From Macrostomum lignano (taxonomy: Eukaryota), in assembly GCA_002269645.1 (NCBI GenBank), contig NIVC01001115.1, positions 125,403-189,402 on the forward strand: a DNA stretch of 64,000 nucleotides, given 5' to 3'. Every line of letters starts with the position of its first letter. Within the stretch, counting starts at the first letter, position 1. Positions 7,497 through 30,127 of the stretch are shown piece by piece. A program made the translations under genes and the position numbers. The notes under the pieces are model-generated. The model was not told where the DNA came from, did not search any database, and was given only the letters and a program-made list of their open reading frames with translations.

Positions 7497-7514
7497 CCTA
7501 TCTATCAATCTGTA

Positions 7515-7610
<96 letters not shown>

Positions 7611-7620
7611 AATCAATCTG
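7413..7620. repeat. (TCTA)n microsatellite
   Basis: Direct reading. Confidence 0.95.
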
Positions 7621-8204
7621 TATATCCTATATACTAAAAATGTGATGTCTATATATATATATATATATATGTGATAGATTAGAGAAAAAATGGCTGGACC
7701 GATTTTGTTCGAACTTGCACTGTTCGATCAGAAATTTTCCCGTGACGGTACATGCATCGTGGCTAAGAAATTGCTCAATGCTAGAGGCATTAAATATTCG
7801 AAAAACATGCTTTTTTGCAAAGGTCAAGCAAACTTTTCGACTTGAAATGCATTGTAAGAATGCTATAGAGAAAAAACTGACTGGTTGAATTCTGACTCTG
7901 AAATAGATTGCATCATAACTGAATTGTAACTCTGACTTGAATTGAAAATGCAGTGTGGAAGCCTAGCACCAGACTTGATTTAAATTGCGTAACCATATTG
8001 TTAACTGATACTGACTGACTGAGAAACTGATTATGTCATAACTGCTTCGTGTGATTAACTCTATGCTTGGATTTTAAACTGTTGAATTATATATATATGT
8101 GCAAAATTTGATAAATGCAGCGACGATGGTTCGAATTTTCATAGAATATAATTTTTTCAATTAAAGCTTTTCAACGTCAGGAAAACTAAAAGACTTTTTA
8201 AAAA

Positions 8205-11200
8205 GAAGCGTCATGTAAAAATCATAGAAGCGTCATATAAAAATCATAGATGCGTCATTTAAAAAATCATAGAAGCATCGTATAAAAATCATAGAAGCGT
8301 CATGTAAACAATCATAGAAGCGTCATGTAAACAATCATAGAAGCGCCATGTAAAAATCATAGAAGCGTCATGTAAACAATCATAGAAGCGTCATGTAAAC
8401 AATCATAGAAGCGTCATGTAAACAATCATAGAAGCGCCATGTAAAAATCATAAAAGCGACATGTAAAAATCATAGAAGCGTCATGTAAAATCATAGAAGC
8501 GTCATGTAAACAATCATAGAAGCGTCATGAAACAATCATGGAAGCGTCATGAAACAATCATAGAAGCGTCATGTAAACAATCATAGAAGCGTCATATAAA
8601 CAATCATAGAAGCGTCATGTAAAAATCATAGAAGCGTCATGTAAACAATCATAGAAGCGTCATGTAAACAATCATAGAAGCGCCATGTAAAAATCATAAA
8701 AGCGACATGTAAAAATCATAGAAGCGTCATGAAACAATCATAGAAGCGTCATGTAAACAATCATAGAAGCGTCATGTAAACAATCATAGAAGCGTCATAT
8801 AAACAATCATAGAAGCGTCATGTAAAAATCATAGAAGCGTCATGTAAACAATCATAGAAGCGTCATGAAACAATCATAGAAGCGTCATGTAAAAATCATA
8901 GAAGCGTCATGTAAACAATCATAGAAGCGTCATGTAAACAATCATAGAAGCGCCATGTAAAAATCATAAAAGCGACATGTAAAAATCATAGAAGCGTCAT
9001 GTAAAATCATAGAATCGTCCTGCCAAAATCGTAGAAGCGTCATGTAAAAAATCCTTGAAGCGTCATGTAAACAATCATAGAAGCGTCATGAAACAATCAT
9101 AGAAGCGTCATGTAAACAATCATAGAAGCGTCATGTAAACAATCCTAGAAGCGTCATGTAAACAATCCTAGAAGCGTCATGTAAACAATCATAGAAGCGT
9201 CATGTAAACAATCCTAGAAGCGTCATGTAAACAATCATAGAAGCGTCATGTAAACAATCATAGAAGCGCCAAGTAAAAATCATAAAAGCGTCATGTAAAC
9301 AATCATTCAAGCGTCATTTAAACAATCATAGAAGCGTCATGTAAACAATCATTCAAGCGTTATTTAAACAATCATAGAAGCGTCATGTAAACAAGCATAG
9401 AAGAATGTAAACAATCATAGAAGCGTCACGTAAACAATCATTCAAGCGTCATTTAAACAATCATAGAAGCGTCATGTAAACAAGCATAGAAGCGTCATGT
9501 AAAAATCATAGAAGCGTCATGTAAACAATCATAGAAGCGTCATGTCAAAATCATAGAAGCGTCATGTAAACAATCATAGAAGCGTCATGAAACAATCATA
9601 GAAGCGTCATGTAAACAATCATAGAAGCGCCATGTAAACAATCATAGAAGCGTCATGTAAAAATCATAGAAGCGTCATGTAAACAATCATAGAAGCGTCA
9701 TGAAACAATCATAGAAACGTCATGTAAAAATCATAGAAGCGTCATGTAAACAATCATAGAAGCGTCATGTAAACAATCATAGAAGCGTCATGTAAACAAT
9801 CATAGAAGCGTCATGTAAACAATCATAGAAGCGCCATGTAAAAATCATAAAAGCGTCATGTAAAATCATAGAAGCGTCATGTAAACAAGCATAGAAGAAT
9901 GTAAACAATCATAGAAGCGTCATGTAAAAATCATAGAAGCGTCATGAAACAATCATAGAAGCGTCATGTAAAAAATCATAAAAGCGTCATGTAAAAATCG
10001 TAGAAGCGTCATGTAAAAATCATAGAAGCGTCATGTAAAATCATAGAAGCGTCATGTAAAAATCATAGAAGCGTCATGTAAAATCGTAGAATCGTCCTGC
10101 CAAAATCGTAGAAGCGTCATGTAAAAAATCATAGAAGCGTCATGTAAAAATCATAGAAGCGTCATGTAAAATCATAGAATCATCCTGCCAAAATCGTAGA
10201 AGCGTCATGTAAAAAATCCTTGAAGCGTCATGTAAACAATCATAGAAGCGTCATGAAACAATCATAGAAGCGTCATGTAAACAATCATAGAAGCGTCATG
10301 TAAACAATCCTAGAAGCGTTATGTAAACAATCCTAGAAGCGTCATGTAAACAATCATAGAAGCGTCATGTAAACAATCATAGAAGCGCCATGTAAAAATC
10401 ATAAAAGCGTCATGTAAAATCATAGAAGCGTCATGTAAACAAGCATAGAAGAATGTAAACAATCATAGAAGCGTCATGTAAAAATCATAGAAGCGTCATG
10501 AAACAATCATAGAAGCGTCATGTAAAAAATCATAAAAGCGTCATGTAAAAATCGTAGAAGCGTCATGTAAAAATCATAGAAGCGTCATGTAAAATCATAG
10601 AAGCGTCATGTAAAAATCATAGAAGCGTCATGTAAAATCGTAGAATCGTCCTGCCAAAATCGTAGAAGCGTCATGTAAAAAATCATAGAAGCGTCATGTA
10701 AAAATCATAGAAGCGTCATGTAAAATCATAGAATCATCCTGCCAAAATCGTAGAAGCGTCATGTAAAAAATCCTTGAAGCGTCATGTAAACAATCATAGA
10801 AGCGTCATGAAACAATCATAGAAGCGTCATGTAAACAATCATAGAAGCGTCATGTAAACAATCCTAGAAGCGTTATGTAAACAATCCTAGAAGCGTCATG
10901 TAAACAATCATAGAAGCGTCATGTAAACAATCCTAGAAGCGTCATGTAAACAATCATAGAAGCGTCATGTAAACAATCATAGAAGCGCCATGTAAAAATC
11001 ATAGAAGCATCATGTAAATAATCATAGAAGCGTCATATAAAAATCATAGAAGCGTTATGTAAAAATGATAGAAGCGTCATATAAAAAATCATAGAAGGGT
11101 CATGTAAACAATCATAGAAGCGTCATATAAAAATCATAGAAGCGTCATGTAAACAATCATAGAAGCGTCATGAAACAATCATAGAAGCGTCATGTAAACA

Positions 11201-11770
11201 ATCATAGAAGCGCCATGTAAAAAATCATAGAAGCGTCATGTAAACAATCATAGAAGCGTCATGTAAAAATCATAGAAGCGTCATATAAAATCATAGATGC
11301 GTCATATAAAAATCATAGATGCGTCATGTAAACAATCATAGAAGCGTCATGTAAACAATCATAGAAGCGTCATGTAAACAATCATAGAAGCGTCATGTAA
11401 ACAATCATAGAAGCGTCATGTAAAAAATCATAGAAGCGTCATGTAAAAATCATAGAAGCGTCATGTAAAAAATCATAGAAGCGTCATGTAAACAATCATA
11501 GAAGCGTCATGTAAAAAATCGTAGAAGCGTCATTTAAAAATCATAAAAAGCGTTATTTAAAAAAATCATAGAAGCGTCATGTAAACAATCATAGAAGCGT
11601 CATGTAAAAAATCATAGAAGCGTCATGTAAAAATTATAGAAGCGTCAAGAAAAAATCATAGAAGCGTCATGTAAAAAAAGTCATAGAAGCGTCATGTTAA
11701 AATCATAGAAGCGTCATGAAAAAATCATAGAAGCCTCATTTAAAAACTAATGAAAGTGTCATTTAAAAAA
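8205..11770. repeat. 22-23 bp satellite AATCATAGAAGCGTCATGTAAA(C/A)
   Basis: Direct reading. Variant blocks are duplicated with a period of about 554 bp (9887/10441, 10091/10645). Confidence 0.95.
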
Positions 11771-12653
11771 TTAAGAAGCATCATGGTACAATAAAAGAAG
11801 CGTCATGTCAGACATGAAGGGTGTCATGTAAAAATAAATGCAGCTATAATGCTGTGCTGGGGAGAAAAACTGAGACGTTAAGGCTCTCAGAGAATAACTG
11901 AGATTACGGGGGGGGGGTTGCTGAGATGTCAAAGCAAAAGTCAGAAGCTACTTCAAAGTTCATGTACTTTACTCAATTTTTTTATTACATTCTTTGTTGG
12001 CTCGCCACGGGGGGGTCGCTGATAGAAGAAGAGTCATGTAAAAAATAAAAGTAGCACTATGTATACATAAAAGAAAAGTCATGTCGAAGTTAAAAGATTC
12101 ATTTGGGAATTGCTATGATGTCAAAGCTTGGAGGGAATCGTTACAGTGCTGTGATTCTTAAAGAAGGAATCACTAAAATGTCAAGGCTTAGGGGAGAAGA
12201 ATTGCTGAGATTCAAGGCTTTAGGTTGGGTTAAAGTTAGGTTTAGGTCAGGTGTGGGTTGAGGGTTATATTTTATCGGGTTTCAGGGTTAACGGGGATTT
12301 TTCAGATTTCAAGGTTTATGGAGGCCATCGCTGACATGTCAAGGCTTACGGGGGGAATAGCTGAGATGTCAAGGCTCACGGGGGTATAAATGAGATTTCA
12401 AAGCTAAAGTCAGAAGCTACATGTAAACAATCATGTAAAGTTTATTGAAAACTTTTTATTACATTATTTGATGCCTCCTCAGGGGAGGGATCGCTGATAA
12501 AAAAAGCGTAATGTAAAAAATAAAAGAAGCTTCATGTCGAAGTTAAGAGATTCATTTGGGAATCCCTACGATGTCGAGGCTTGCAGGAAATCGCTATAAT
12601 GCTGTAGCAGTGCTATAATGACTCTTAGAGAGAATTACTGAAATGTCAATGCT

Positions 12654-12715
12654 TTAGGGTTAGGTTAGGGTTAGGGTTAGGGTTAGGGTTAGGGTTAGGC
12701 TAGGGTTAGGGTTAG
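12654..12715 (+). repeat. Interstitial telomere-like (TTAGGG)n tract in element B
   Basis: About 10 near-perfect TTAGGG units. Confidence 0.9.
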
Positions 12716-13443
12716 AAGGTTGACAGATATTTTTAGATTTCCAAGGCTTATTGGGGCATTGCTGAGATGTCAAGGGGGGGAGTTGATATGTTAAAGCTTG
12801 TGGTGGGGAATTACTGACATGTCAAGGCTTACAAGGTTTGACAGGAGATTTTTTAAGATTTCAAGGATACATGTAGCTTATTAAAAAAACGTGTAGCGAT
12901 TGCATTTCTTTGGCTCCCCAACGGGGGGCGTAGATTGCTAGTCTAAATATACTAAATCTCTAATCCTATATACTAAAAATGAGTTGTCTGTATGTGGGTA
13001 TGTGGGTATGCGATAGATTTCAGAAAAATTGGCTCAACCGATTTTCTTCAAACTTGCACCATTCGATCAGAAATTTTCCTGGGACGGTACATGCATCTTG
13101 GCTAAGAAATTGCTCAATGTTAAAGGGATTAAATATTCGAAAAACATGCTTTTTTGCAAAGGTCAAGCAAAATTTTCGACTTGAAATGCATTGTAAGAAT
13201 GCTAGAGAAAAGCCTGACTGACTGAATTTCAATTCTGATAAAGATTGCATCACAACAAGTTGAAAACAGTGTCGAAGAAATGCACACACGACTTGATTTA
13301 AATTGCGTAACCAATATTGCTAACTTGAACTGAGACTGATACTGGCTGACTGAGAAATTGATTATGTCATAACTTTTTACTCTAATTGACTTGCTATAAG
13401 AATTAAATTATAAGGGCAACAGTTCATGTTCTCCAATTGAAAA

Positions 13444-13510
13444 TAGATAGCCTAGATGCGAACAGACTGGAATGCTAATGTAGCGACCTGGGTTCGAATC
13501 TTAGTAGTGC
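13444..13510 (+). other. tRNA-derived cassette in element C
   Basis: tagcctagatgcgaacagactggaatgctaatgtagcgacctgggttcgaatcttag, followed by a T6 run. Confidence 0.55.
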
Positions 13511-13559
13511 AAAAAAAATTTTTTATCAAAACACCCTAAAACACAAAAAGCTAAACATA

Positions 13560-16500
13560 AAGGAAGCGCAATATCAAACATTAAAGAGCCAACCATCTAA
13601 AACATTAAAGAGCCACCATGTCAAACATATACATGACTCAATGTCAAACATATGCGTGACTCCATGTCAGACTTTAAGGGGCCACCATGTCGAACATTAA
13701 AGAGCCACCATTTGAACATTAAAGAGCCACCATGTCAAACATAAAAGAGCCACCATGTAAAACATATACGTGACTCCATGTCAAACATATACGTGACTCC
13801 ATGTCAAACATATACGTGACTCCATGTCAAACATATACGTGACTCCATGTCAAACATATACGTGACTCCATGTCAAACATATACGTGACTCCATGTCAGA
13901 CATTAAAGAGCCACCATGTCGAACATTAAAGAGCCTCCATGTCAAACAGATACATGACTCCATGTCAAACATATACATGACTCCATGTCAAACATTAAAG
14001 AGCCACCATGTCAAGCATTAAAGAGCCACCATGTCAAACATTGAAGAGCCACCATGTCGAACATTAAATAAACACGATGTTGAACAGTAAAGAGCCACGA
14101 TGTTGAAAATTAAAGAGCCAGACCAGGTTAAACATAAATAAGTCACCATGTCAAACATTAAAGAGCCACCATGTCTAACATTAAAGAGTCGCCATGTCAA
14201 ACATATACATGACTCCATGTAAGACATTAAAGAGCCAGGCCAGGTTAAACATAAATAAGCCACCATGTCAAACATTAAAGAGCCGCCATGTCAAACATAT
14301 ACATGACTCCATGTCAGACATTCAAGAGCCACCATGTCAAACATTAAAGAGCCACTATGTCGAACTTTAAAGAGCCACTATGTCAAACATTAAAGAATCA
14401 CAATGTAAAACATTAATGAGCCGGCATGTCGAAAATTAAACAGCCACCATGTCAAACATCAAAGAGCCACCATGTCAAACATATACATGACTCCATGTCG
14501 AACATTAAAGAGCCACCATGTCAAACATAAAAGAGCTATCATGTCAAACATTAAAGAGCCATCATGTCAAACATAAAAGAGCCACCATGTCAAACATAAA
14601 AGAGCCACCATTCCATACATTAAAGAGCCACCATGTAAAACATATACGTGACTCAAACATGAAAAACCTGATGACAAACGTGGCGAACATTAAAGAGCCA
14701 CCATGTCGAACATAAAAGAGCCACCATGTCTAACATTAAAGAGCCACCATGTCAAGCATAAAAGAGCCACCATGTCGAACAAAAAAGAGCCACCATGTCG
14801 AACATTAAAGAGCCACCATGTCCAACATATATGTGACTCCATGTCAAACATTAAAGAGCCACCATGTCAAACATTAAAGAGCCACCATGTCGAACATTAA
14901 AGAGCCACCATGTCCAACATATATGTGACTCCATGTCAAACATTAAAGAGCCACCATGTCAAACATAAAAGAGCCATCATGTCAAACATAAAAGAGCCAT
15001 CATGTCAAACATAAAAGAGCCACCATGTCAAACATAAAAGAGCCACCATGTCAAACATTAAAGAGCCATCATGTCGAACATTAAAGAGCCACCATGTCTA
15101 ACATTAAAGAGCCACCATGTCGAACATTAAAGAGCCACCATGTCTAACATCAAAGAGTCGCCATGTCAAACATATACATGACTCCATGTAAGACATTAAA
15201 GAGCCAGGCCAGGTTAAACATAAATAAGCCACCATGTCAAACATTAAAGAGCCACCATGTCGAACATTAAAGAGCCGCCATGTCGAACATTAAAGAGCCG
15301 CCATGTCAAACATATACATGACTCCATGTCAGACATTCAAGAGCCACCATGTCGAACATTAAAGAGCCACCATGTCGAACTTTAAAGAGCCAGTATGTCA
15401 AACATTAAAGAATCACAATGTAAAACATTAATGAGCCGGCATGTCGAAAATTAAAGAGCCACCATGTCAAACATCAAAGAGCCACCATGTTAAACATATA
15501 CATGACTCCATGTCGAACATTAAAGGGCCACCATGTCAAACATTAAAGAGCCACCATGTCAAACATAAAAGAGCTATCATGTCAAACATTAAAGAGCCAT
15601 CATGTCAAACATAAAAGAGCCACCATGTCAAACATAAAAGAGCCACCATGCCAAACATTAAAGAGCCACCATGTCAAACATATACGTGACTCAAACATGA
15701 AAAACCTGATGACAAACGTGGCGAACATTAAAGAGCCACCATGTCGAACATAAAAGAGCCACCATGTCAAAAATTAAAGAGCCGCAATGTCAAACATTGA
15801 AGAGAAATCATGTCTAACATTAAAGAGCCATCATGTCTAACATTAGAGAGCCACCATGTCTAACATTAAAGAGCCACCATGTCAAGCATAAAAGAGCCAC
15901 CATGTCGAACATAAAAGAACCACCATGTCGAACAAAAAAGAGCCACCATGTCGAACATTAAAGAGCCACCATGTCAAACATAAAAGAGCCATCATGTCAA
16001 ACATAAAAGAGCCATCATGTCAAACATAAAAGAGCCACCATGTCAAACATAAAAGAGCCACCATGTCAAACATTAAAGAGCCATCATGTCGAACATTAAA
16101 GAGCCACCATGTCTAACATTAAAGAGCCACCATGTCGAACATTAAAGAGCCACCATGTCTAACATTAAAGAGTCGCCATGTTAAACATATACATGACTCC
16201 ATGTAAGACATTAAAGAGCCAGGTCAGGTTAAACATAAATAAGCCACCATGTCAAACATATACATGACTCCATGTCAGACATTCAAGAGCCACCATGTCG
16301 AACATTAAAGAGCCACCATGTCGAACTTTAAAGAGCCAGTATGTCAAACATTAAAGAATCACAATGTAAAACATTAATGAGCCGGCATGTCGAAAATTAA
16401 AGAGCCACCATGTCAAACATCAAAGAGCCACCATTTTAAACATATACATGACTCCATGTCGAACATTAAAGGGCCACCACGTCAAACATTAAAGAGCCAC

Positions 16501-18215
16501 CATGTCAAACATAAAAGAGCTATCATGTCAAACATTAAAGAGCCATCATGTCAAACATAAAAGAGCCATCATGTCAAACATAAAAGAGCCATCATGTCAA
16601 ACATAAAAGAGCCATTATGTCAAACATATACATGACTCCATGTCAAACATAAAAGAGCCACCACGTAAAACATTAAAGAGCCACCATGTCAAACATAAAA
16701 GAGCCATCATGTCAAACATAAAAGAGCCACCATGTCAAACATAAAAGAGCCACCATGTCAAACATTAAAGAGCCATCATGTCGAACATTAAAGAGCCACC
16801 ATGTCTAACATTAAAGAGCCACCATGTCGAACATTAAAGAGCCACCATGTCTAACATTAAAGAGTCGCCATGTTAAACATATACATGACTCCATGTAAGA
16901 CATTAAAGAGCCAGGTCAGGTTAAACATAAATAAGCCACCATGTCAAACATATACATGACTCCATGTCAGACATTCAAGAGCCACCATGTCGAACATTAA
17001 AGAGCCACCATGTCGAACTTTAAAGAGCCAGTATGTCAAACATTAAAGAATCACAATGTAAAACATTAATGAGCCGGCATGTCGAAAATTAAAGAGCCAC
17101 CATGTCAAACATCAAAGAGCCACCATTTTAAACATATACATGACTCCATGTCGAACATTAAAGGGCCACCACGTCAAACAATAAAGAGCCACCATGTCAA
17201 ACATAAAAGAGCTATCATGTCAAACATTAAAGAGCCATCATGTCAAACATAAAAGAGCCACCATGTCAAACATAAAAGAGCCACCTTGCCAAACATTAAA
17301 GAGCCACCATGTCAAACATATACGTGACTCAAACATGAAAAACCTGATGACAAACGTGGCGAACATTAAAGAGCCACCATGTCGAACATAAAAGAGCCAC
17401 CATGTAAAACATATAGGTGACTCCATGTCAAATTTTAAAGAGCCACCATGTCGAACATTAAAGAGTCACCATGCCAAACATAAAAGAGCTACCATGTCGA
17501 ACATTAAAGAACCACCATGTCAAACATTAAAGAGCCACCATATCGAACATTAAAGAGCCACCAAGTCAAACATTAAAGAGCTACCATGTCAAACATTAAA
17601 GACCTACCATGTCAAACATTCAAGAGGCATCATGTCAAACATTCAAGAGCCACCATGTCAAACATTCAAGAGCCACCATGTCGAACATTAAAGAGCCACC
17701 ATGTCAAACATTCAAGAGCCACCATATCAAACATTCAAGAGCCACCACGTAAAACATTAAAGAGCCACCATGTCGAACATAAAAGAGCCACCATGCCAAA
17801 CATAAAATAGCCACCATGTCGAACATTAAAGAGCCACCATATTGAACATTAAAGAGCCACCGAGTCAAACATAAAAGAGCTACCATGTCAAACAATAAAG
17901 ACCTACCATGTCAAACATTAAAGAGCCACCATATCAAACATAAAAGAGCCACCATGTCAAACATATATGTGAATCCAGGTCAAACAGTAAAGAGCCACCA
18001 TGTCAAACATAAAAGAGCCACCATGTCAAACATATATGTGAATCCAGGTCAAACAGTAAAGAGCCACCATGTCAAACATAAAAGAGCCACCATGTCGAAC
18101 ATAAAAGAACCACCATGTCAAACATAAAAGAGCCACTATGTCAAACAATAAACAGACACCATGTCAGACAATAAAAAAACCCGAATCAAACATTAAAGAG
18201 CCACCATGTCAAACA
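13560..18215. repeat. 23-bp satellite CATGTCAAACATTAAAGAGCCAC with interspersed CATATACATGACTC variants
   Basis: Direct reading. Block duplications at offsets 1038 and 1638 from the ORF track (14518/15556/17194). Confidence 0.95.
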
Positions 18216-18315
18216 TAAAATTTACACAATTTCAAACGTAAAAGTAAGCGTCATACTAATTTTAAAGGAGCCACTATAGAGCTAAGGAAATTGTAGCACT
18301 AGCTACTTATTGTAT

Positions 18316-18445
18316 GGTGGATGCTTACTATTTGGGATGCTTGCTATCTGGGGATGCTTGCTATCTGGGGGATGCTTGCTATCTGGGGGATGCTTGCTAT
18401 CTGGGGGGTACTTGCTATCTGGGGGATGCTTGCTGTCTTGGGATG
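18316..18445 (+). repeat. Short array of the 18-19 bp GATGCTTGCTATCTGGG satellite at the 3' end of element C
   Basis: Same monomer as in A1 and D. Confidence 0.9.
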
Positions 18446-19054
18446 ATTTCTTCTTGCATTACACTTTATTTGAGCAGTTTGTCTGTCGTCTTTGTGAAGG
18501 CTTTATTTGGCTGTCTTTTTGTTACTTGTAGAGAACAGAGATTCTATCCAGATGTCCCCCAACGGGGGGCGAAGATTGCTAGTCCAATATACTAAAAATG
18601 AAAATCTTGCTTGTTTGTTTGTTTGTACGCAATCGATTAGAGAAAAAATGGCTGGACCGATTTTCATGAGACTTGCACTGTTCGATCAGAAATTTTCCCG
18701 TGACGGTACATGCATCGTGGCTAAGAAATTGCTCGATGCTAAAGGCATTAAATATTCGAAAAACATGCTTTTTTTGCAAAGGTCAAGCAAACTTTTTGAC
18801 TTGAAATGCATTGTAAGAATGCTAGAGAAAAAACTGACTGGTTGATTCTGATTCTGAAATAGATTGCATCATAACTGAATTGTAACTCCGACTTGAATTG
18901 AAAATGCAGTGTGGAAGCGTAGCACCAGACTTGATTTAAATTGCGTAACCATATGATTATGTCATAACTGCTTCGTGTGATTTACTCTATGCTTGGAGTT
19001 TTGAAACTTATAATTATATTATAGAAGTGCTAAAATTCATGTTATCAAAACGAT

Positions 19055-19115
19055 GAGAGCTAGCCTAGAGGTAAACAGACTGACTGCTAAATGCAGGGAC
19101 GATGGTTCAAATTTT
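19055..19115 (+). other. tRNA-derived cassette in element B2
   Basis: gagagctagcctagaggtaaacagactgactgctaaatgcagggacgatggttcaaattttt. Confidence 0.5.
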
Positions 19116-19164
19116 TACAGAGTTTTTTTAATTAAAGTTTTTTAACGCCAAAAAAACTAAAAAA

Positions 19165-22100
19165 TCATGGAAGCGTCATGTAAAAAATCATAAAAGCGTT
19201 ATGTAAAAAATCATAGAAACGTCATGTAAAAAATCATAAAAGCGTTATGTAAAAATCATAGAAGCGTAATGTAAACAATCATAAAAGTTTTATGTAAAAA
19301 TCATAGAAGCGTCATGTAAACAATCATAGAAGCGTCATGTAAACAATCCTAGAAGCGTCATGTAAAAAATCATAAAAGCGTTATGTAAAAATCATAGAAG
19401 CGTCATGTAAAAAGTCATAGAAGCGTCATGTAAAAATCATAGAAGCGTCATGTAAAAAATCATAGAAGCGTCGTGTAAACAATCATAGAAGCGTCATGTA
19501 AACAATCATAGAAGCGTCATGTAAAAAATCATAAAAGCGTTATGTAAAAAATCATAGAAGCGTCATGTAAAAAATCTTAGAAGCGTCATGTAAACAATCA
19601 TAGAAGCGTCATGTAAACAATCATAGAAGCGTCATGTAAAAAATCATAGAAGCGTCATGTAAAAATCATAGAAGCGTCATGTAAAAAATCTTAGAAGCGT
19701 CATGTAAAAATTATAGAAGCGTCATATAAACAATCATAGATGCGTCATGTAAAAAATCTTAAAGCGTCATGTAAAAATTACAGAAGCGTCATATAAACAA
19801 TCATAGAAGCGTCATGTAAACAATCATAGAAGCGTCATGTAAAAATCATAGAAGCGTCCTGCAGAAATCGTAGAAGCGTCATGAAATAATCATAGAAGCG
19901 TCATGTAAAAAGCATAGAAGCGTCATGTAAAAATCATAGCGTCATATAAACAATCATAGAAGCGTCATGTAAAAATCTAGAAGCGTCATGTAAAAATTAT
20001 AGAAGCGTCATATAAACAATCATAGAAGCGTCATGTAAACAATCATAGAAGCGTCATGTAAACAATCATAGAAGCGTCATGTAAAAATCATAGAAGCGTC
20101 ATGTAAAAATCATAGAAGCGTCATGTAAAAAATCATAGAAGCGTCATGTAAACAATCATAGAAGCGTCATGTAAACATCATAGAAACGTCGTGTAAACAA
20201 TCATAGAAGCGTCATGTAAAAATCAAAGAAGCGTCATGTAAAAAATCATAGAGGCATCACGTAAAAATCATAGAAGCGTCATGTAAACAATCATAGAAGC
20301 GTCATGTAAAAAATCATAGAAGCGTCATGTAAACAATCATAGAAGCGTCATGTAAACAATCATAGAAGCGTCATGTAAAAAATCATAGAAGCGTCATGTA
20401 AACAATCATAGAAGCGTCATGTAAAAATCATAGAAGCGTCATGTAAAAAATCATAGAAGCGTCATGTAAAAATCATAAGCGTCATGTAAAAACATAGAAG
20501 CGTCATGTAAACAATCATAGAAGCGTCATGTAAAAAATCATAAAAGCGTCATGAAAAAATCATAGAAGCGTCATGTAAACAATCATAGAAGCGTCATGTA
20601 AAAAATATAAGCGTCATGTAAAAACCATAGAAGCGTCATGTAAACAATCATAGAAGCGTCATATAAACATCATAGAAGCGTCATGTAAAAATCATAGAAG
20701 CGTCATATAAACAATCATAGAAGCGTCATGTAAAAATCATAGAAGCGTCATGTAAAAAATCATAGAAGCGTCATATAAACATCATAGAAGCGTCATGTAA
20801 AAATCATAAGCGTCATGTAAATCATAGAAGCGTCATGTAAACAATCATAGAAGCGTCATGTAAACAATCATAGAAGCGTCATGTAAAAAATCATAGAAGC
20901 GTCATGTAAACAATCATAGAAGCGTCATGTAAACAATCATAGAAGCGTCATGTAAAAAATCATAGAAGCGTCATGTAAACAATCATAGAAGCGTCATGTA
21001 AAAATCATAGAAGCGTCATGTAAAAATCATAGAAGCGTCATGTAAACAATCATAGAAGCGTCATGTAAACAATCATAGAAGCGTCATGTAAAAATCATAG
21101 AAGCGTCATGTAAAAATCATAGAAGCGTCATGTAAAAATCTTAGAAGCGTCATGTAAAAATCATAGAAGCGTCATGTAAACAATCATAGAAGCGTCATGT
21201 AAAAAATCTAGAAGCGTCATGTAAAAATTAGAAGCGTCATATAAACAATCATAGAAGCGTCATGTAAAAATCATAGAAGCGTCATGTAAAAATCATAGAA
21301 GCGTCATGCAAAATCATAAACGTCATGTAAAAAATCATAGAAGCGTCATGTAAAAATCATAGAAGCGTCATGTAAAAATCATAGAAGCGTCATATAAACA
21401 ATCATAGAAGCGTCATGTAAAAAATCTAGAAGCGTCATGTAAAAATTATAGAAGCGTCATATAAACAATCATAGAAGCGTCATGTAAAATCATAGAAGCG
21501 TCATGTAAACAATCATAGAAGCGTCATGTAAAAATCATAGAAGCGTCATGTAAAAATCATAGAAGCGTCATGTAAAAATCATAGAAGCGTCATGTAAACA
21601 ATCATAGAAGCGTCATGTAAAAATCATAGAAGCGTCATGTAAAAATCATAGAAGCGTCATGTAAAAATCATAGAAGCGTCATGTAAAAATCATAGAAGCG
21701 TCACGTAAACAATCATAGAAGCGTCATGTAAACAATCATAGAAGCGTCATGTAAAAAATCATAGAAGCGTCATGTAAACAATCATAGAAGCGTCATGTAA
21801 ACAATCATAGAAGCGTCATGTAAAAAATCATAGAAGCGTCATGTAAACAATCATAGAAGCGTCATGTAAAAAATCATAGAAGCGTCATGTAAAAAATCAT
21901 AGAAGCGTCATGTAAAAATCATAAAGCGTCATGTAAAAAATCATAGAAGCGTCATGTAAACAATCATAGAAGCGTCATGTAAAAATCATAAAGCGTCATG
22001 TAAAAAATCATAGAAGCGTCATGTAAACAATCATAGAAGCGTCATGTAAAAAATATAAGCGTCATGTAAAAACATAGAAGCGTCATGTAAACAATCATAG

Positions 22101-25075
22101 AAGCGTCATGTAAAAATCATAGAAGCGTCATGTAAAAATCATAGAAGCGTCATATAAACAATCATAGAAGCGTCATGTAAAAATCATAGAAGCGTCATGT
22201 AAAAATCATAGAAGCGTCATATAAAATCATAGAAGCGTCATGTAAAAAATAGAAGCGTCATGTAAACATAGAAGCGTCATGTAAACAATCATAGAAGCGT
22301 CATGTAAACAATCATAGAAGCGTCATGTAAAAAATCATAGAAGCGTCATGTAAACAATCATAGAAGCGTCATGTAAACAATCATAGAAGCGTCATGTAAA
22401 AAATCATAGAAGCGTCATGTAAACAATCATAGAAGCGTCATGTAAAAATCATAGAAGCGTCATGTAAAAAATCATAGAAGCGTCATGTAAACAATCATAG
22501 AAGCGTCATGTAAAAATCATAGAAGCGTCATGTAAAAAATCATAGAAGCGTCATGTAAAAATCATAGAAGCGTCATGTAAAAAATCTAGAAGCGTCATGT
22601 AAAAATCATAGAAGCGTCATGTAAACAATCATAGAAGCGTCATGTAAAAATCTAGAAGCGTCATGTAAAAATCATAGAAGCGTCATGTAAAAATCATAGA
22701 AGCGTCATGTAAAAATCATAGAAGCGTCATGTAAAAATCATAGAAGCGTCATGTAAAAATCATAGAAGCGTCATGTAAAAATCATAGAAGCGTCATGTAA
22801 AAATCATAGAAGCGTCATGTAAAAATCATAGAAGCGTCATGTAAACAATCATAGAAGCGTCATGTAAAAATCTAGAAGCGTCATGTAAAAATTATAGAAG
22901 CGTCATATAAACAATCATAGAAGCGTCATGTAAAAATCATAGAAGCGTCATGTAAAAATCATAGAAGCGTCATGTAAAAATCATAGAAGCGTCATGTAAA
23001 AATCATAGAAGCGTCATGTAAACAATCATAGAAGCGTCATGTAAACAATCATAGAAGCGTCATGTAAAAATCATAGAAGCGTCATGTAAAAATCATAGAA
23101 GCGTCATGTAAAAATCATAGAAGCGTCATGTAAAAAATCATAGAAGCGTCATGTAAACAATCATAGAAGCGTCATGTAAACAATCATAGAAGCGTCATGT
23201 AAAAAATCATAGAAGCGTCATGTAAAAATCATAGAAGCGTCATGTAAACAATCATAGAAGCGTCATGTAAAAAATCATAGAAGCGTCATGTAAACAATCA
23301 TAGAAGCGTCATGTAAACAATCATAGAAGCGTCATGTAAAAATCATAGAAGCGTCATGTAAAAATCATAGAAGCGTCATGTAAAAATCATAGAAGCGTCA
23401 TGTAAACAATCATAGAAGCGTCATGTAAAAATATAAAGCGTCATGTAAAAAATCATAGAAGCGTCATGTAAACAATCATAGAAGCGTCATGTAAAAAAGC
23501 ATAAAGCGTCATGTAAAAATCATAGAAGCGTCATGTAAACAATCATAGAAGCGTCATGTAAAAAATCATAGAAGCGTCATGTAAAAATCATAGAAGCGTC
23601 ATAAAAATCATAGAAGCGTCATGTAAAAAGCATAGAAGCGTCATGTAAAAAATCATAGAAGCGTCATATAAACATCATAGAAGCGTCATGTAAACAATCA
23701 TAGAAGCGTCATGTAAAAATCATAGAAGCGTCATGTAAACATCATAAGCGTCATGTAAACAATCATAGAAGCGTCATGTAAACAATCATAGAAGCGTCAT
23801 GTAAAAAATCATAGAAGCGTCATGTAAACAATCATAGAAGCGTCATGTAAACAATCATAGAAGCGTCATGTAAAAATCATAGAAGCGTCATGTAAACATC
23901 ATAGAAGCGTCATGTAAACAATCATAGAAGCGTCATGTAAAAAATCATAGAAGCGTCATGTAAACAATCATAGAAGCGTCATGTAAAAAATCATAGAAGC
24001 GTCATGTAAAAATCATAGAAGCGTCATGTAAAAATCATAAAGCGTCATGTAAAAACATAGAAGCGTCATGTAAACAATCATAGAAGCGTCATGTAAAAAA
24101 TATAAAGCGTCATGTAAAAATCATAGAAGCGTCATGTAAACAATCATAGAAGCGTCATGTAAAAAATCATAGAAGCGTCATGTAAAAATCATAGAAGCGT
24201 CATATAAACAATCATAGAAGCGTCATGTAAAAAGCATAGAAGCGTCATGTAAAAAATCATAGAAGCGTCATATAAACATCATAGAAGCGTCATGTAAACA
24301 ATCATAGAAGCGTCATGTAAAAAATCATAGAAGCGTCATATAAACAATCAAGCGTCATGTAAAAATCATAGAAGCGTCATGTAAACAATCATAGAAGCGT
24401 CATGTAAACAATCATAGAAGCGTCATGTAAAAATCATAGAAGCGTCATGTAAACAATCATAGAAGCGTCATGTAAACAATCATAGAAGCGTCATGTAAAA
24501 AATCATAGAAGCGTCATGTAAACAATCATAGAAGCGTCATGTAAACAATCATAGAAGCGTCATGTAAAAATCATAGAAGCGTCGTGTAAACAATCATAAA
24601 GCGTTATGTAAAAATCATAGAAGCGTCATGTAAAAAATCATAGAAGCGTCATGTAAAAATCATAGAAGCGTCATGTAAAAAATCATAGAAGCGTCATATA
24701 AAAAATCATAGAAGCGTCATATAAAAAATCATAGAAGCGTCATGTAAAAAATCATAGAAGCGTCATGTAAACAATCATAGAAGCGTCATGTAAAAAATCA
24801 TAGAAGCGTCATGTAAAAATCATAGAAGCGTCATGTAAACAATCATAGAAGCGTCATGTAAAAAGCATAGAAGCGTCATGTAAACAATCATAGAAGCGTC
24901 ATGTAAAAATCATAGAAGCGTCATGTAAAAATCATAGAAGCGTCATGTAAACAATCATAGAAGCGTCATGTAAAAATCATAGAAGCGTCATGTAAAAATC
25001 ATAGAAGCGTCATAAAAATCATAGAAGCGTCATCATAGAAGCATCATAAAAATCATAGAAGCGTCAAAAATCATG
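19165..25075. repeat. 22-23 bp satellite AATCATAGAAGCGTCATGTAAA(C/A), about 5.9 kb
   Basis: Direct reading. Confidence 0.95.
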
Positions 25076-25963
25076 TCATTTAAAAAATTAAGAAGCATCA
25101 TGGTAGAATAAAAGAAGCGTCATGTCAGACATGAAGGTGTCATGTAAAAATTAAATGCAGTTATAATGCTGTGCTGGGGAGAAAAACTGAGACGTAAAGG
25201 CTCTCAGAGAATAACTGAGATTACGGGGGGGTGGTTCTGAGATGTCAAAGCAAAAGTCAGAAGCTACTTCAAAGTTCATGTACTTTACTCAATTTTTTAT
25301 TGCATTCTTTGTTGGCTCGCCACGGGGGGAGGCGCTGATAGAAGAAGAGTCATGTAAAAAATAAAAGTAGCACTAAGTATACATAAAAGAAAGGTCATGT
25401 CGAAGTTAAAAGATTCATTTGGGAATTGCTACGATGTCAAAGCTTGGTGGAAATCGTTATAGTGCTGGTGATTCTTAAAGAAGGAATCACTAAAATGCCA
25501 AGGCTTAGGGGAGAAGAATTGCTGAGATTTCAAGGCTTTAGGTTGGGTTAAAGTTAGGTTTAGGTCAGGTGTGGGTTGAGGGTTATATTTTATCGGGTTT
25601 CAAGGTTAACAGGGGATTTTTTAGATTTCAAGGTTTATGGGGGCCATCGCTGACATGTCAAGGCTTACGGGGGGGGGGGAATAGCTGAGATGTCAAGGCT
25701 CACTGGGGTATAAATGAGATTTCAAGGCTAAAGCCAGAAGCTACATGTAGTTTATTGAAAACTTTTTATTACATTATTTGATGCCTCCTCAGGGGAGGGA
25801 TCGCTGATAAAAAAAGCGTAATGTAAAAAATAAAAGAAGCTTCATGTCGAAGTTAAGAGATTCATTTGGGAATCCCTACGATGTCGAGGCTTGCAGGGAA
25901 TCGCAATAATGCTGTAGTAGTGCTATAATGACTCTTAGAGAGAATTACTGAAATTTCAATGCT

Positions 25964-26055
25964 TTAGGGTTAGGGTTAGGGTTAGGGTTAGGGTTAGGGT
26001 TAGGGCTAGGGTTAGGCTAGGGTTAGAGTTGGGGTTAGGTTTTGATTAGGGTTAG
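25964..26055 (+). repeat. Interstitial telomere-like (TTAGGG)n tract in element B2
   Basis: Same position relative to flanks as the tract in B. Confidence 0.9.
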
Positions 26056-26825
26056 AAGGTTGACAGATATTTTTAGATTTTCAAGGCTTATTGGGGCATT
26101 GCTGAGATGTCAGGGGGGGGAGTTGATATGTTAAAGCTTGTGGGGGGAATTACTGACATGTCAAGGCTTACAAGGTTTGACAGGAGATTTTTTAAGATTT
26201 CAAGGATACATGTAGCATATTAAAAAAACGTGTATTGCATTTCTTTGGCTCCCCAACGGGGGGCGTAGATTGCTAGTCCATATACTAAAAATGAAAATCT
26301 TGCTTGCTTGCTTGTACGAAATCGATTTTCTCCTGAATGGCTGGACCGATTTTCTTCGAACTTGCACTGTTCGATCAGAAATTTGCCCGTGACGGTACAT
26401 GCATCTTGGCTAAGAAATTGCTTGATGCTAAAGGGATTAAATATTCGAAAAACATGCTTTTTTGCAAAGGTCAAGCAGCTCTTTCGACTTGAAATGCATT
26501 GTAAGAATGCTAGAGAAAAAACTGACTGGTTGAATTCTGATTCTGAAATAGATTGCATCATAACAATAGGCTTTTATTTATCGTCTCTGTACTGGCTGAA
26601 TTTTGACACTGAATTGAATTACGTCACAGTATTGAAAACGCAGTGTGGAAGCATAGCACAATACTTGATTTATCTTGCGTAACCATATTGCTAACTTTAA
26701 TAGACACTGGTACTGACTTGCCTAAGAAATTGATTATGTCATAACTGCCTCGTGTAACTTTTACTCTATTGACTTGGTGTGAGTGTTGAATTATAAGTGC
26801 TACAAATTCATTTACAATTTCAATG

Positions 26826-26892
26826 AGAGCTAGCCTAGATGTGAACACACTGGACTGCTAATGCAGCAACCTGGGTTCGAATCTTAGTAGTG
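26826..26892 (+). other. tRNA-Ser(GCT)-like cassette in element D (best preserved copy)
   Basis: A box tagcctagatgtg, anticodon arm ctgga-ctgctaa-tgcag, T arm ctggg-ttcgaat-cttag. The acceptor stem does not pair, so this is not an intact tRNA. Confidence 0.6.
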
Positions 26893-26974
26893 TATAAAAG
26901 AATAAAAGTAGCATAAATTTTTTATTGAAAGCTTTTATTAAAAAACTAATTAAAAAGAACTGGATTATGGATTA

Positions 26975-28225
26975 GAAGCCAAGGATTATTGTACTTGATA
27001 AACCAAGGATTATTGCACTCGATAAGCCAAGGATTACTGCGCTTGATAAACCAAGGATTATTGCACTTGATAGGCCAAGGATTACTGCACTTGATAAACC
27101 AAGGATTATTGCACTTGCTAAGCCAAGGATTATTGCACTCGATAAGCCAAGGATTACTGCGCTTGATAAACCAAGGATTATTGCACTTGATAGGCCAAGG
27201 ATTATTGCACTTGATAAGCCAAGGATTATTGCACTCGATAAGCCAAAGATTACTGCGCTTGATAAACCAAGGATTATTGCACTTGATAAACCAAGGATTA
27301 TTGCACTTGATAAGCCAAGGATTATTGCACTCGATAAGCCAAGGATTACTGCACTTGATAAACCAAGGACTACTGCGCTTGATAAACAAAGGGTTACTGC
27401 ACTTGATAAACCAAGGATTACTGCACTAGATTAACCAAGACTTACTGCACTTGATAAACCAAGGATTACTGCACTTGATAAACCAAGGATTACTGCACTT
27501 GATAAGCCAAGGATTACTGCACTCGATAAACCAAGGATTATTGCACTTGATAGGCCAAGGATTACTGCACTTGATAAACCAAGGATTATTGCACTTGCTA
27601 AGCCAAGGATTATTGCACTCGATAAGCCAAGGATTACTGCGCTTGATCAACCAAGGATTATTGCACTTGATAGGCCAAGGATTACTGCGCTTGATAAACC
27701 AAGGATTATTGCACTTGATAAGCCAAAGATTACTGCGCTTGATAAACCAAGGATTATTGCACTTGATAAACCAAGGATTATTGCACTTGATAAGCCAAGG
27801 ATTATTGCACTCGATAAGCCAAGGATTACTGCACTTGATAAACCAAGGACTACTGCGCTTGATAAACAAAGGGTTACTGCACTTGATAAACCAAGGATTA
27901 CTGCACTTGATAAGCCAAGGATTTCTGCACTTGATAAACCAAGGATTACTGCACTTGATAAACCAAGGACTACTGCATTGGATAAACCAAGACTTACGGC
28001 ACTTTATAAACCAAGGATTTCTGCACTTGATAAACCAAGGATTTCTGCACTTGATAAACCAAGACTTACTGCACTTGATAAACCAAGACTTACTGCACTT
28101 GATAAACCAAGGATTACTGCACTTGATAGACCAGAACTTACTTCACTTGATAAGCCAAGGATTACTGCACTTGATAAACCAATGATTACTGCGCTTGGCA
28201 AACAAAGGATTACTGCGCTTGATAA
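26975..28225. repeat. 24-bp satellite TTGATAAACCAAGGATTACTGCAC (rc of the A1 satellite)
   Basis: Direct reading. 480-bp higher-order duplication (ORFs 26946/27426). Confidence 0.95.
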
Positions 28226-28259
28226 GCTTGGCTATATGTATGGGATTCTTTCTATCTAG

Positions 28260-29150
28260 GGATGTTTGCTTTTTATGGATTCTTACTAACTGGGTTGATG
28301 CTTCTGCAATATTTGGGTGGTGCTTGGTATCTGCAGGATGCTTGCTGTCTGGGTGGATGCTTCTACAATATCTGGGGGGTGCTTGGTATCTGCAGGATGC
28401 TTGCTGTCTGGGTGGATGCTTGCTATCTGGGGGATGCTTGCTGTCTGGGTGGATGCTTCTACAATATTTGGGGGATGCTTGCTATCTAGCTGGATGCTTC
28501 TACAATATTTGGGGGATGCTTGTTATCTGCAGATGCTTGCTATTTGGGTGGATGCTTCTACAATATTTGGGAAATGCTTGCTGTCTGGGTGGATGCTTGC
28601 TATCTGCAGATGCTTGCTATCTGGGTGGATGCTTCTACAATATTTGGGGGATGCTTGCTATCTGCAGATGCTTGCTATTTGGGTGGATGCTTCTACAATA
28701 TTTGGGAAATGCTTGCTGTCTGGGTGGATGCTTGCTATCTGCAGATGCTTGCTATTTGGGTGGATGCTTCTACAATATTTGGGAAATGCTTGCTGTCTGG
28801 GTGGATGCTTGCTATCTGCAGATGCTTGCTATCTGGGTGGATGCTTCTACAATATTTGGGGGATGCTTGTTATCTGCAGATGCTTGCTATCTGGGTGGAT
28901 GCTTCTACAATATTTGGGGGATGCTTGCTATCTGGGTGGATGCTTCTACAATATTTGGGGGATGCTTGTTATCTGCAGATGCTTGCTATCTGGGTGGATG
29001 ATTCTACAATATTTGGGAAATGCTTGCTGTCTGCAGGATGCTCGCTATCTGGGTGGATGCTTGCTACGAGTATTAGGGGATGCTTGCTATCTGCGGTTGC
29101 TTACTTTTGGAGGGGGTGCTTGCTATCTGGAGGGATGCTTGCTGTCTTGG
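28260..29150. repeat. 18-19 bp satellite GATGCTTGCTATCTGGGTG with ttctacaatatttggg variants
   Basis: Direct reading. Confidence 0.9.
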
Positions 29151-29404
29151 GAATATTTTCTATTTAGGGTTAATGTCTGTTATCTTTGTGAAAGTTATAT
29201 TTTGTTGTATATTTGTTAATTTTAGAAAAAAATAGATTCATAGCAAATATCATTGTCCGTGACAATTTTACATGAATAAGGTGATTTTTAAAAGTTAGGA
29301 AGGAATTGGTGTTAAGGAAATTTGCATTTTTAATTGTTTTCCATTAACTATTTTTGCTCCGTGCTTATTGGGCGCCCCGAAGGGGGGCCGCACTAGATTG
29401 CTAG

Positions 29405-30127
<723 letters not shown>

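What the first reader, a model, noticed from the sequence alone, without database searches (positions are those of the whole stretch)
26826..26930. tRNA-Ser(GCT)-like Pol III cassette sits just upstream of the satellite in most carrier elements
Seen: D (26826-26892), C (13444-13510), B2 (19055-19115) and A1 (5793-5858, minus strand) contain TAGCCTAG (A box), a GA(C/A)TGCTAA loop and GGTTC(G/A)AAT (B box, with a pairing T arm in C and D). B keeps only the 3' half (~8111-8130). A T5-T6 run follows within ~40 bp, and the satellite starts ~50-100 bp later. Known: GGACTGCTAAT is the anticodon arm of metazoan tRNA-Ser(GCT), and A plus B boxes form an internal Pol III promoter that can also act as a TFIIIC chromatin boundary. 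Inference: the elements captured a tRNA/SINE head that may produce a ~90-110 nt ncRNA, or may insulate or position the array. Its fixed position next to three unrelated-looking payloads suggests a role in where arrays nucleate.
Basis: partly seen in the sequence, partly recalled or inferred. Interest (0 to 1): 0.75.

Follow-up and report, generated by a model that had tools for sequence, protein, structure and literature searches.

The report
tRNA relic inside satellite-carrying Helitrons
A broken piece of a transfer-RNA gene rides inside a family of flatworm rolling-circle transposons, just ahead of the satellite DNA they carry; it is real but looks like decaying inherited cargo, not a switch that starts the satellite.

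Summary
The motif is real and tRNA-derived. A profile built from 64 unrelated E. coli and phage tRNAs ranks copies D, A1, C and B2 first to fourth in the window (E 1.7e-5 to 0.024). D meets 23 of 24 textbook tRNA positions; 0 of 200 shuffles did. It is not a tRNA gene: Rfam 13.1 bits against a cut-off of 29, no acceptor stem, broken D stem. The Ser(GCT) label is unproven: the anticodon loop fits, but the variable loop has 4 nt and lacks Ser's long arm. The carriers are head-to-tail non-autonomous Helitrons (5' TC, 3' hairpin plus CTAG) in a Macrostomum genome. The proposed role in nucleating arrays is not supported. The five copies descend from one insertion. The cassette is no better conserved than the whole core (0 of 6 pairs significant), although it beats its AT-rich flanks in 3 of 6 pairs. 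B lost the A box and B and B2 lost B-box C61, yet both keep multi-kb arrays. Verdict: passive tRNA/SINE-head cargo; residual Pol III activity is untested.

The parts
26831..26887 (+). tRNA-derived relic, copy D (tRNA positions 8-65): A box 26831-26842, anticodon loop 26855-26861 (GCT at 26857-26859), 4-nt variable loop 26867-26870, T arm 26871-26887, B box 26874-26884
   Evidence: (E 1.7e-5)
26918..26923 (+). T6 run, possible Pol III terminator of copy D (a transcript from about 26824 would be about 95-100 nt; inferred)
13448..13504 (+). copy C of the relic; T6 at 13519-13524
   Evidence: E 0.015
5796..5852 (-). copy A1; anticodon stem 2 of 5 pairs, G18 changed
   Evidence: E 0.0013
19061..19117 (+). 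copy B2; one deletion plus one insertion in the anticodon arm, B-box C61 changed to T, T stem degraded, T5 inside the T arm
   Evidence: (E 0.024)
8109..8139 (+). copy B, 3' half only; A box and D arm deleted, C61 changed to T
   Evidence: E 8.4e-7 to the family profile; E 2.2
26277..29404 (+). element D: non-autonomous Helitron-like unit; 5' TC head, GCTT microsatellite, core, cassette, 24-bp array, GATGCTTG minisatellite tail, hairpin plus CTAG followed by T
18583..26276 (+). element B2 (23-bp array, B-type tail with TTAGGG repeats)
12942..18582 (+). element C, a mosaic: 23-bp C array, D/A1-type tail, B-type last 26 nt, doubled head (12942 and 12964)
7625..12941 (+). element B; 5' junction A|TC
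1346..6374 (-). element A1; head missing (starts at the TG microsatellite), 24-bp array, D-type tail, hairpin end
910..1345 (-). A0: core only, different head, diverges about 100 nt before the cassette position; no cassette, array or 3' end found (lower boundary approximate)
26979..28225 (+). 24-bp satellite array of D, 92 nt after G65
19160..25033 (+). 23-bp array of B2 (91% matches), 43 nt after position 65
13574..18220 (+). 23-bp array of C, 70 nt after G65
8204..11808 (+). 23-bp array of B (89% matches), 65 nt after the half cassette
2029..5691 (-). 24-bp (48-bp dimer) array of A1, 105 nt after G65
6375..7390 (-). A2: second 24-bp array with the same start junction as A1's array but no core or cassette ahead of it
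7412..7619 (.). (ATCT)n microsatellite at the left edge of the B-C-B2-D run
29405..30127 (.). (TATC)n microsatellite at the right edge of the B-C-B2-D run

Best explanation
The cassette is a tRNA-derived relic (a tRNA pseudogene or the head of a tRNA-derived SINE) that entered the ancestor of this non-autonomous Helitron family once and has been copied passively with it. SHOWN: tRNA origin; loss of the acceptor and D stems; homology and fixed position of all five copies at the 3' edge of a shared core of about 550 bp; Helitron-type termini and head-to-tail arrangement; decay in the B lineage; shuffled modules between elements. INFERRED: (1) one retroposition or capture event put it at the end of the left conserved segment; (2) rolling-circle replication by an autonomous Helitron elsewhere in the genome spread it; (3) the slot behind it is the variable central region known from satellite-carrying Helitron/Helentron elements, where short units, some native to the element's own tail, expand by slippage or unequal exchange and are swapped by recombination; (4) the satellite therefore sits next to the cassette by descent, and the cassette is not needed to keep it. 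The best-kept copies (D, C, A1) may still bind TFIIIC or give a weak transcript of about 85-100 nt as a by-product; that is untested.
For: tRNA origin; 14 of 37 exact GTDB matches to the variable-loop/T-arm 18-mer of copy C lie in tRNA calls. Not a working tRNA; D stem 31% paired and covariation no better than shuffles, 207 of 500. Helitron termini: a scan for GC hairpin plus CTAG followed by T returned the four element ends plus one other site; the defining termini are as described in PMC4038834 (passages). No excess conservation: cassette versus whole core p = 0.065-0.58 in 6 of 6 pairs; 202 of 343 core windows of 57 columns are as invariant as the cassette; 86 of 389 core windows of 11 columns are as invariant as the B box; boxes versus rest of cassette p = 0.50. 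Dispensable: B lacks the A box, B and B2 lack C61, with arrays of 3.6 and 5.9 kb at 89-91% matches. Satellite-like units occur in the B tails at 17-21 of 23. Precedent for related flanks with unrelated arrays and for fixed array orientation by descent: PMC7492417 (discussion).
Against: The cassette is more conserved than its immediate 60-nt flanks in 3 of 6 pairs (D-C p 0.00098, C-A1 p 0.00033, A1-B2 p 0.00073). The pairs are not independent and the flanks are AT-rich (GC 0.15-0.38 against 0.40-0.49), but a local constraint is possible. TAGCCTAGA is invariant in 4 of 4 full copies and GGTTC in 5 of 5; the B box has 0 of 11 variable sites among D, C and A1 (p 0.10). No target-site duplication or SINE body was found: the longest shared flanking repeat is 5-6 nt, so the entry route is not shown. 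Only five copies in about three lineages were available.
Confidence: 0.65

Rival explanations
1. The cassette is a maintained Pol III promoter or TFIIIC site that insulates the Helitron 5' core from satellite heterochromatin, or stalls replication forks and so sets where arrays start to expand.
For: Local conservation peak against 60-nt flanks in 3 of 6 pairs. D, C and A1 keep B box GGTTCGAATC and A box TRGCNNAR, with T5-T6 downstream. Arrays begin 43-105 nt after it in 5 of 5 cassette copies. Boundary and fork-pausing activity of tRNA genes is recalled knowledge, not tested here.
Against: One ancestral event explains the adjacency. No excess conservation over the core. The promoter is damaged in B and B2, which hold the most homogeneous arrays. 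Seven other arrays lie 579-17,582 nt from any cassette end. All four A boxes miss 1-2 consensus positions.
Confidence: 0.12
2. The best copies are transcribed by Pol III into a short RNA of about 85-100 nt that matters to the element (for example as a small-RNA source or a primer-like or structured RNA), independent of the satellite.
For: Both boxes at canonical spacing, no internal T4 in D, C or A1, T5-T6 15-31 nt after G65. tRNA-like promoters in non-SINE elements have precedent in Helenus TRIMs (PMC10886601, abstract and discussion).
Against: The predicted RNAs fold no better than shuffles (z -0.03 to -0.80) and show no covariation. Helitrons move as DNA, so unlike TRIMs and SINEs they have no evident need for a transcript (established knowledge). 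B2 has a T5 inside the T arm.
Confidence: 0.12
3. Origin sub-hypothesis, compatible with the best explanation: the source was specifically the host tRNA-Ser(GCT), whose long variable arm was deleted.
For: The loop heptamer CTGCTAA in D and A1 equals that of E. coli serV. Anticodon GCT stands in register in 3 of 4 full copies. E. coli Ser(GCT) ranks 2nd, 5th and 7th of 64 tRNAs for D, C and A1 with one 17-nt gap.
Against: Loop end to G52 is 12 nt against 29 nt in serV. The top scorers are Phe, His and Tyr, and T5 Ser(GCT) ranks 25th, 6th and 22nd. The class I profile scores D at E 1.1e-5 and the class II profile at E 0.25, though the latter rests on only 8 sequences. Of 14 tRNA calls carrying the same variable-loop/T-arm 18-mer, 7 are Arg, 3 Pro, 2 Glu, 1 Ala and 1 Ser(CGA); none is Ser(GCT). 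All comparators are prokaryotic or phage.
Confidence: 0.35
4. The resemblance is chance, or a by-product of a DNA hairpin whose left arm mirrors a GTTCGAAT-containing right arm.
For: Rfam tRNA score only 13.1 bits for D, with no tRNA hit for C, A1 or B2. ARAGORN does not call any of the five copies at 75% of its threshold or above. In D and C the D-loop region pairs with the B-box region in the minimum-energy fold (z -2.0 and -1.5 as DNA). No tRNA among 13 phage blastn hits.
Against: An independent tRNA profile ranks four copies 1-4 in the window, best E 1.7e-5. 0 of 200 shuffles reach 23 of 24 invariants. The anticodon arm sits at exact canonical spacing.
Confidence: 0.03

Closest known systems
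Cg_HINE / DINE-1 / Pearl satellite-carrying non-autonomous Helentrons (PMC7492417: abstract, passages, first part of discussion)
   Same: Left segment with a short variable microsatellite, central tandem array in fixed orientation, right segment with a palindrome; related flanks can carry unrelated arrays; modules recombine.
   Different: Termini here are of the canonical Helitron type (5' TC, hairpin then CTAG, A|T junction), not subterminal inverted repeats in T-rich sites. Monomers are 23-24 bp in arrays of 50-260 copies, not 140-180 bp in up to 29 copies. The paper's main text has 0 occurrences of tRNA, SINE or polymerase III. That Pearl core repeats were reported to hold A- and B-box-like motifs is recalled and was not seen in any call.
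Lep1 and other non-autonomous canonical Helitrons with acquired internal sequence (PMC4038834 and PMC6544945, passages); bat Helitrons with retroposed cargo (PMC4224331, passages)
   Same: 5' TC, 3' CTRR with a subterminal hairpin, insertion between A and T, conserved 5' part and variable acquired 3' part; capture of host sequence including retrotransposons.
   Different: The cargo here is a tRNA-derived relic followed by kilobase satellite arrays; no sequence homology to Lep1 or Helibat was tested.
Arabidopsis chromosome 5 tRNA-Cys cluster overlapping Helitron annotations (PMC10701932: abstract, passages)
   Same: tRNA sequence inside tandem, Helitron-annotated units. [quoted passage not shown]
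   Different: Those are mostly intact, expressed tRNA genes, and three Helitron predictors did not confirm the elements. Here the Helitron termini are clear, and the tRNA is a non-functional relic in mid-element, far from the 3' hairpin.
Helenus / TRIMp3: tRNA-like sequence in non-autonomous LTR retrotransposons (PMC10886601: abstract, passages, discussion)
   Same: tRNA-like A and B boxes embedded in a non-SINE mobile element, proposed to arise by SINE insertion; anticodon and body often disagree on isotype.
   Different: TRIMs need a transcript as template, which explains promoter retention. No LTR structure is evident here (not searched for separately), and the boxes are not conserved above background.
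tRNA-derived SINE (SINE2) head
   Same: A box, B box, lost acceptor stem, A-rich and T-rich sequence downstream.
   Different: No body, LINE-type tail or target-site duplication was found, and no free copy lies outside the carriers in this window.

Membership tests
tRNA gene (Rfam RF00005) | Covariance score at or above 29 bits or an ARAGORN call | tested here: not met
   D 13.1 bits, E 4.8; no tRNA hit for C, A1, B2; 0 genes
tRNA gene (Rfam RF00005) | Acceptor and D stems | tested here: not met
   D stem 31% of cells paired; positions 1-7 and 66-72 of D give 1 Watson-Crick and 2 G-U pairs of 7 (read from the sequence)
tRNA-derived sequence | Invariant positions, anticodon arm and T arm at canonical spacing, above chance | tested here: met
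   23 of 24 invariants, 0 of 200 shuffles; independent profile E 1.7e-5
tRNA-Ser(GCT) | Anticodon GCT in a canonical loop | tested here: met
   D, C, A1 in register; B2 shifted; loop equals that of serV in D and A1
tRNA-Ser(GCT) | Long (class II) variable arm | tested here: not met
   4-nt loop; 12 against 29 nt to G52. 3 of 5 Ser calls in the comparator set measure 19-22 nt; the other two gave -2 and 3, from a mis-picked T loop or a doubtful call
tRNA-Ser(GCT) | Best match among host tRNAs is Ser(GCT) | not testable with these tools
   No eukaryotic tRNA set available; the prokaryotic ranking is ambiguous
Type 2 Pol III promoter | A box and B box consensus at suitable spacing | tested here: inconclusive
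   A box 1-2 mismatches in 4 of 4; B box 1 mismatch in D, C, A1 and 2 (including C61) in B2 and B; A box absent in B (consensus patterns recalled)
Type 2 Pol III promoter | TFIIIC/Pol III occupancy and transcript | not testable with these tools
   No expression or chromatin data
tRNA-derived SINE (SINE2) | Body and LINE-type or simple-repeat tail with target-site duplication | tested here: not met
   Longest flanking direct repeat 5-6 nt; old duplications could have eroded; a LINE tail could not be compared
tRNA-derived SINE (SINE2) | Dispersed copies independent of the carrier | tested here: inconclusive
   None in this 64 kb (best other hit E 0.5; no match above background in 30-64 kb); the rest of the genome was not available
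Non-autonomous canonical Helitron | 5' TC | tested here: met
   4 of 4 plus-strand elements; A1 head missing, A0 head different
Non-autonomous canonical Helitron | 3' CTRR preceded by a short hairpin | tested here: met
   CTAG at 12941, 18582, 26276, 29404 after a CCCC-loop-GGGG hairpin; each hairpin alone is only z -0.9 to -1.9
Non-autonomous canonical Helitron | Insertion between A and T without duplication | tested here: inconclusive
   Outer junctions are A|TC at 7625 and CTAG|T at 29404, inside a (TATC)n tract; no empty site available
Non-autonomous canonical Helitron | No RepHel gene; autonomous partner elsewhere | tested here: inconclusive
   35 frames of at least 100 codons in 1-30,200, longest 306, mostly repeat read-through, judged by eye and not scanned against Pfam; partner not searchable
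HINE (non-autonomous Helentron) | Subterminal inverted repeats and T-rich target | tested here: not met
   The 5' terminal motif has no reverse-strand copy in the window; ends are hairpin then CTAG

The most novel reading that the evidence does not exclude
A Helitron family has domesticated a tRNA head as a TFIIIC/Pol III site at the border between its conserved 5' replication core and its satellite payload. It would shield the core from heterochromatin or pause forks so that short tail units are amplified right behind it, with B-type copies having lost it only after their arrays formed. This would link Pol III elements, rolling-circle transposons and satellite birth in one testable unit.
Probability: 0.1. 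Interest if true: 0.75.

Novelty: new variant of a known kind. Interest (0 to 1): 0.32.

Why it matters
As it stands it is a clear case of tRNA-derived cargo inside a Helitron with recognisable termini, a cargo class that one 2023 paper called unreported (PMC10701932, passages). It is useful for Macrostomum repeat annotation, since such copies can pass as tRNA pseudogenes or SINEs. It also shows that 23-24 bp satellites in this genome travel inside Helitrons. If the cassette proved to be a selected TFIIIC site, it would offer a direct handle on why arrays arise at fixed places inside mobile elements, in a worm with working transgenesis (PMC5730564, title and passages).

Tried and rejected
ARAGORN at default found 0 genes. 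With relaxed thresholds it called none of the five copies at 75% or above; lower thresholds gave 153-279 calls, mostly noise, and only the first 28 rows were printed. Rfam at gathering level found 0 matches in the window. Distant blastn of copy D against phages gave 13 hits at E 2-8, none a tRNA. In the GTDB scan 23 of 37 exact matches were not in a tRNA call. A suspected diverged cassette near 33150-33280 and 33458-33513, beside the 30-bp array, was rejected: E 0.5-1.6, no Rfam tRNA hit, not above background. Relatedness of the 30-mer to the 24-mer was rejected (131-566 of 1000 shuffles as high). Relatedness of the 24-mer to either 23-mer was rejected (1113 and 1981 of 2000). A tRNA-like stretch at 57802-57842 stayed marginal (E 0.09-0.13; no Rfam hit). 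The sigma-70 and terminator scan does not apply to a eukaryote and was not used. No covariance model of the family was built. A0 was rejected as a test of 'no cassette, no satellite' because it lacks the whole 3' part. Host tRNAs, the rest of the genome, Repbase/Dfam/SINEBase and the viral and metagenome contig collections stayed unchecked.

Full report
Host and setting. The frame at 43042-43944 is 97% identical over 65% of its length to a Macrostomum lignano G-alpha protein, so the window is from M. lignano or a close relative. Simple and tandem repeats make up 15% of that genome (PMC5730564, passages). Positions 1-30 kb hold six copies of a core of about 550 bp, 73-89% identical to D in local alignments. 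Four lie head to tail on the plus strand: B 7625-12941, C 12942-18582, B2 18583-26276, D 26277-29404. Each starts with TC and ends in a CCCC-loop-GGGG hairpin followed by CTAG. A blind scan for a GC hairpin plus CTAG followed by T returned these four ends and one other site. The run is bounded by A|TC and CTAG|T inside a (TATC)n tract. These are the termini that define canonical Helitrons (PMC4038834, passages). No RepHel-sized frame is present (35 frames of at least 100 codons, longest 306, judged by eye). The carriers are therefore best read as non-autonomous Helitrons. A1 and A0 lie on the minus strand; A1 lacks its head, and A0 has a different head and breaks off about 100 nt before the cassette position.

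Observation. The motifs are present as described. In tRNA numbering, T8-G65 is D 26831-26887, C 13448-13504, A1 5852-5796 and B2 19061-19117. B has only the 3' half. T runs follow and arrays begin 43-105 nt after G65.

Is it tRNA-derived? Standard finders say it is not a gene. ARAGORN found none. Rfam gave D 13.1 bits against a cut-off of 29 and no tRNA hit for C, A1 or B2; B was not scanned separately. These tools reward the acceptor and D stems, which are gone. Two tests that do not depend on those stems say it is derived from a tRNA. First, a scan for 24 textbook invariant positions plus the T and anticodon stems ranks D, C, A1 and B2 at the top of the window (32, 30, 28 and 27 of 34; one unrelated site ties at 27). 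The best site in 200 whole-window shuffles never reached D's 32, or its 23 invariants. I wrote that score after seeing the sequence, and the scores of A1 and B2 alone fall within the shuffle range. Second, a profile from 64 unique tRNA calls (70 in all) of E. coli, T5 and Bxz1, chosen without reference to the window, ranks D, A1, C and B2 first to fourth (E 1.7e-5, 0.0013, 0.015, 0.024) and B's half sixth (E 2.2). In addition, 14 of 37 exact GTDB matches to C's 18-base variable-loop/T-arm stretch lie in tRNA calls.

Which tRNA? The anticodon reads GCT in 3 of 4 full copies, and the loop equals that of E. coli serV in D and A1. The distance from loop to G52 is 12 nt against 29 in serV, so the class II arm that defines cytosolic Ser tRNAs is missing. 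The 14 tRNA calls sharing the 18-mer are Arg 7, Pro 3, Glu 2, Ala 1 and Ser(CGA) 1. Pairwise ranking puts Phe, His or Tyr first, with E. coli Ser(GCT) 2nd, 5th and 7th of 64 through one long gap. A Ser(GCT) with a deleted arm and a class I body are both open. Host tRNAs were not available.

Is it maintained? For: against 60 nt on each side the cassette is more conserved in 3 of 6 pairs (p 0.0003-0.001; the other three p 0.08-0.82). TAGCCTAGA and GGTTC are invariant. Against: the flanks are AT-rich patches. Against the whole core, no pair is significant (p 0.065-0.58), and the cassette is lower than the core in 4 of 6 pairs. 202 of 343 core windows are as invariant as the cassette, and 86 of 389 as invariant as the B box. 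Boxes do not differ from the rest of the cassette (3 of 23 against 8 of 34 variable sites, p 0.50). Predicted RNAs fold like shuffles and show no covariation (207 of 500). B lost the A box; B and B2 lost C61, and B2 has a T5 within the T arm. With five copies the power is low.

Does it place the satellite? The five cassettes are homologous at one site, so adjacency is one observation and not five. The payloads are two or three families. The B and C 23-mers are borderline related (90 of 2000; 26 of 300), and both match degenerate units in the B tails, up to 21 of 23 for B and 18 of 23 for C. This suggests that B-type arrays grew from the element's own repeats. The 24-mer is unrelated. C is a mosaic of D-type tail and B-type end, so modules are exchanged. 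The B and B2 arrays, behind damaged promoters, are 3.6 and 5.9 kb and the most homogeneous. Seven other arrays lie 579-17,582 nt from any cassette end. One of them, A2, shares A1's start junction and is probably a partial duplicate, so it says little about origin. In oyster Cg_HINE elements a fixed central array, with unrelated arrays in related flanks, is described with no mention of tRNA or Pol III in the main text (PMC7492417).

Mechanism. Most likely (0.65): a single capture or retroposition of a tRNA or SINE head at the end of the left conserved segment, passive spread by rolling-circle replication, and decay. Arrays expand and are swapped in the slot behind it for reasons unrelated to it. 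Entry route, transposition and expansion mechanism are inferred; origin, decay, homology and termini are shown. A functional boundary or nucleation site (0.12) and a functional transcript (0.12) are not excluded for D, C and A1.

Novelty. Satellite-carrying Helitron-type elements and Helitron capture of host and retroposed DNA are known (PMC7492417; PMC4224331, passages; PMC12001565, passages). tRNA-like promoters in non-SINE elements are known for TRIMs (PMC10886601). A tRNA inside a Helitron was proposed, unconfirmed, for an Arabidopsis tRNA-Cys cluster (PMC10701932). Ten searches returned no description of this Macrostomum family or of a tRNA relic beside a Helitron-borne satellite. Most hits were seen only as listings. 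PMC6544945, PMC8010984 and PMC5139131 were seen as passages and added nothing on tRNA cargo. Three supplementary files of PMC5730564 held no mention of Helitron or SINE, but tables held as pictures, subscription journals, Repbase and Dfam were out of reach and may already list it. Verdict: real, a new variant of a known kind, interest 0.32.

Noticed in passing
window 7412-7619 and 29405-30127: The four head-to-tail Helitrons B-C-B2-D sit between two (TATC)n tracts with A|TC and CTAG|T junctions, as if inserted into one microsatellite; the 273-bp array at 35289-38317 is also flanked by (CTAT)n. Possible microsatellite targeting.
   Followed up: partly
window 26837-26846 with 26875-26885; 13454-13463 with 13492-13502: In D and C the D-loop region is nearly the reverse complement of the B-box region, so the minimum-energy fold is a long hairpin rather than a cloverleaf (DNA z -2.0 and -1.5; not seen in B2). 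It could matter in single-stranded rolling-circle intermediates.
   Followed up: partly
window 11809-12941 and 25067-26276: B-type tails contain an internal duplication of about 450 bp, degenerate 23-mer satellite units, 29-30-bp repeats and TTAGGG runs (12654-12715, 25964-26055).
   Followed up: partly
window 57428-57445: An isolated copy of the carriers' 5' terminus (17 of 18 identical to B's head) without the core; 370 nt further lies a weak tRNA-like T arm (57802-57842, E 0.09-0.13), which on the minus strand also reads as hairpin plus CTAG at 57791.
   Followed up: partly
window 1290-1345 (-) and 200-520, 671-804: A0 has a different head joined to the same core; it recalls Helentron-type subterminal repeats (recalled, untested). 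Downstream it carries a (GCA)n tract and a degenerate duplication of about 190 bp period.
   Followed up: partly
window 33295-33305 (-) and 33496-34590: A 30-bp array lies next to an 11-base exact match to the carriers' core motif, with TCTG and GTCA microsatellites on its other side; possibly another repeat-carrying element. The array has no significant cassette or 24-mer homology.
   Followed up: partly
window 12942-12981: Element C has a doubled 5' head, a short abortive one followed by a full one at 12964.
   Followed up: no
window 35289-38317: 11 copies of a 273-bp unit with 100% matches, a very recent amplification or an assembly effect, inside what appears to be the G-alpha gene region.
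   Followed up: no
window 43042-43944; 51160-52624; 55766-56566; about 31870-32350: Host genes: a G-alpha(s)-like exon; frames that by eye resemble CUB and C-type lectin membrane proteins and a WSC-like exon (labels recalled, not scanned).
   Followed up: no
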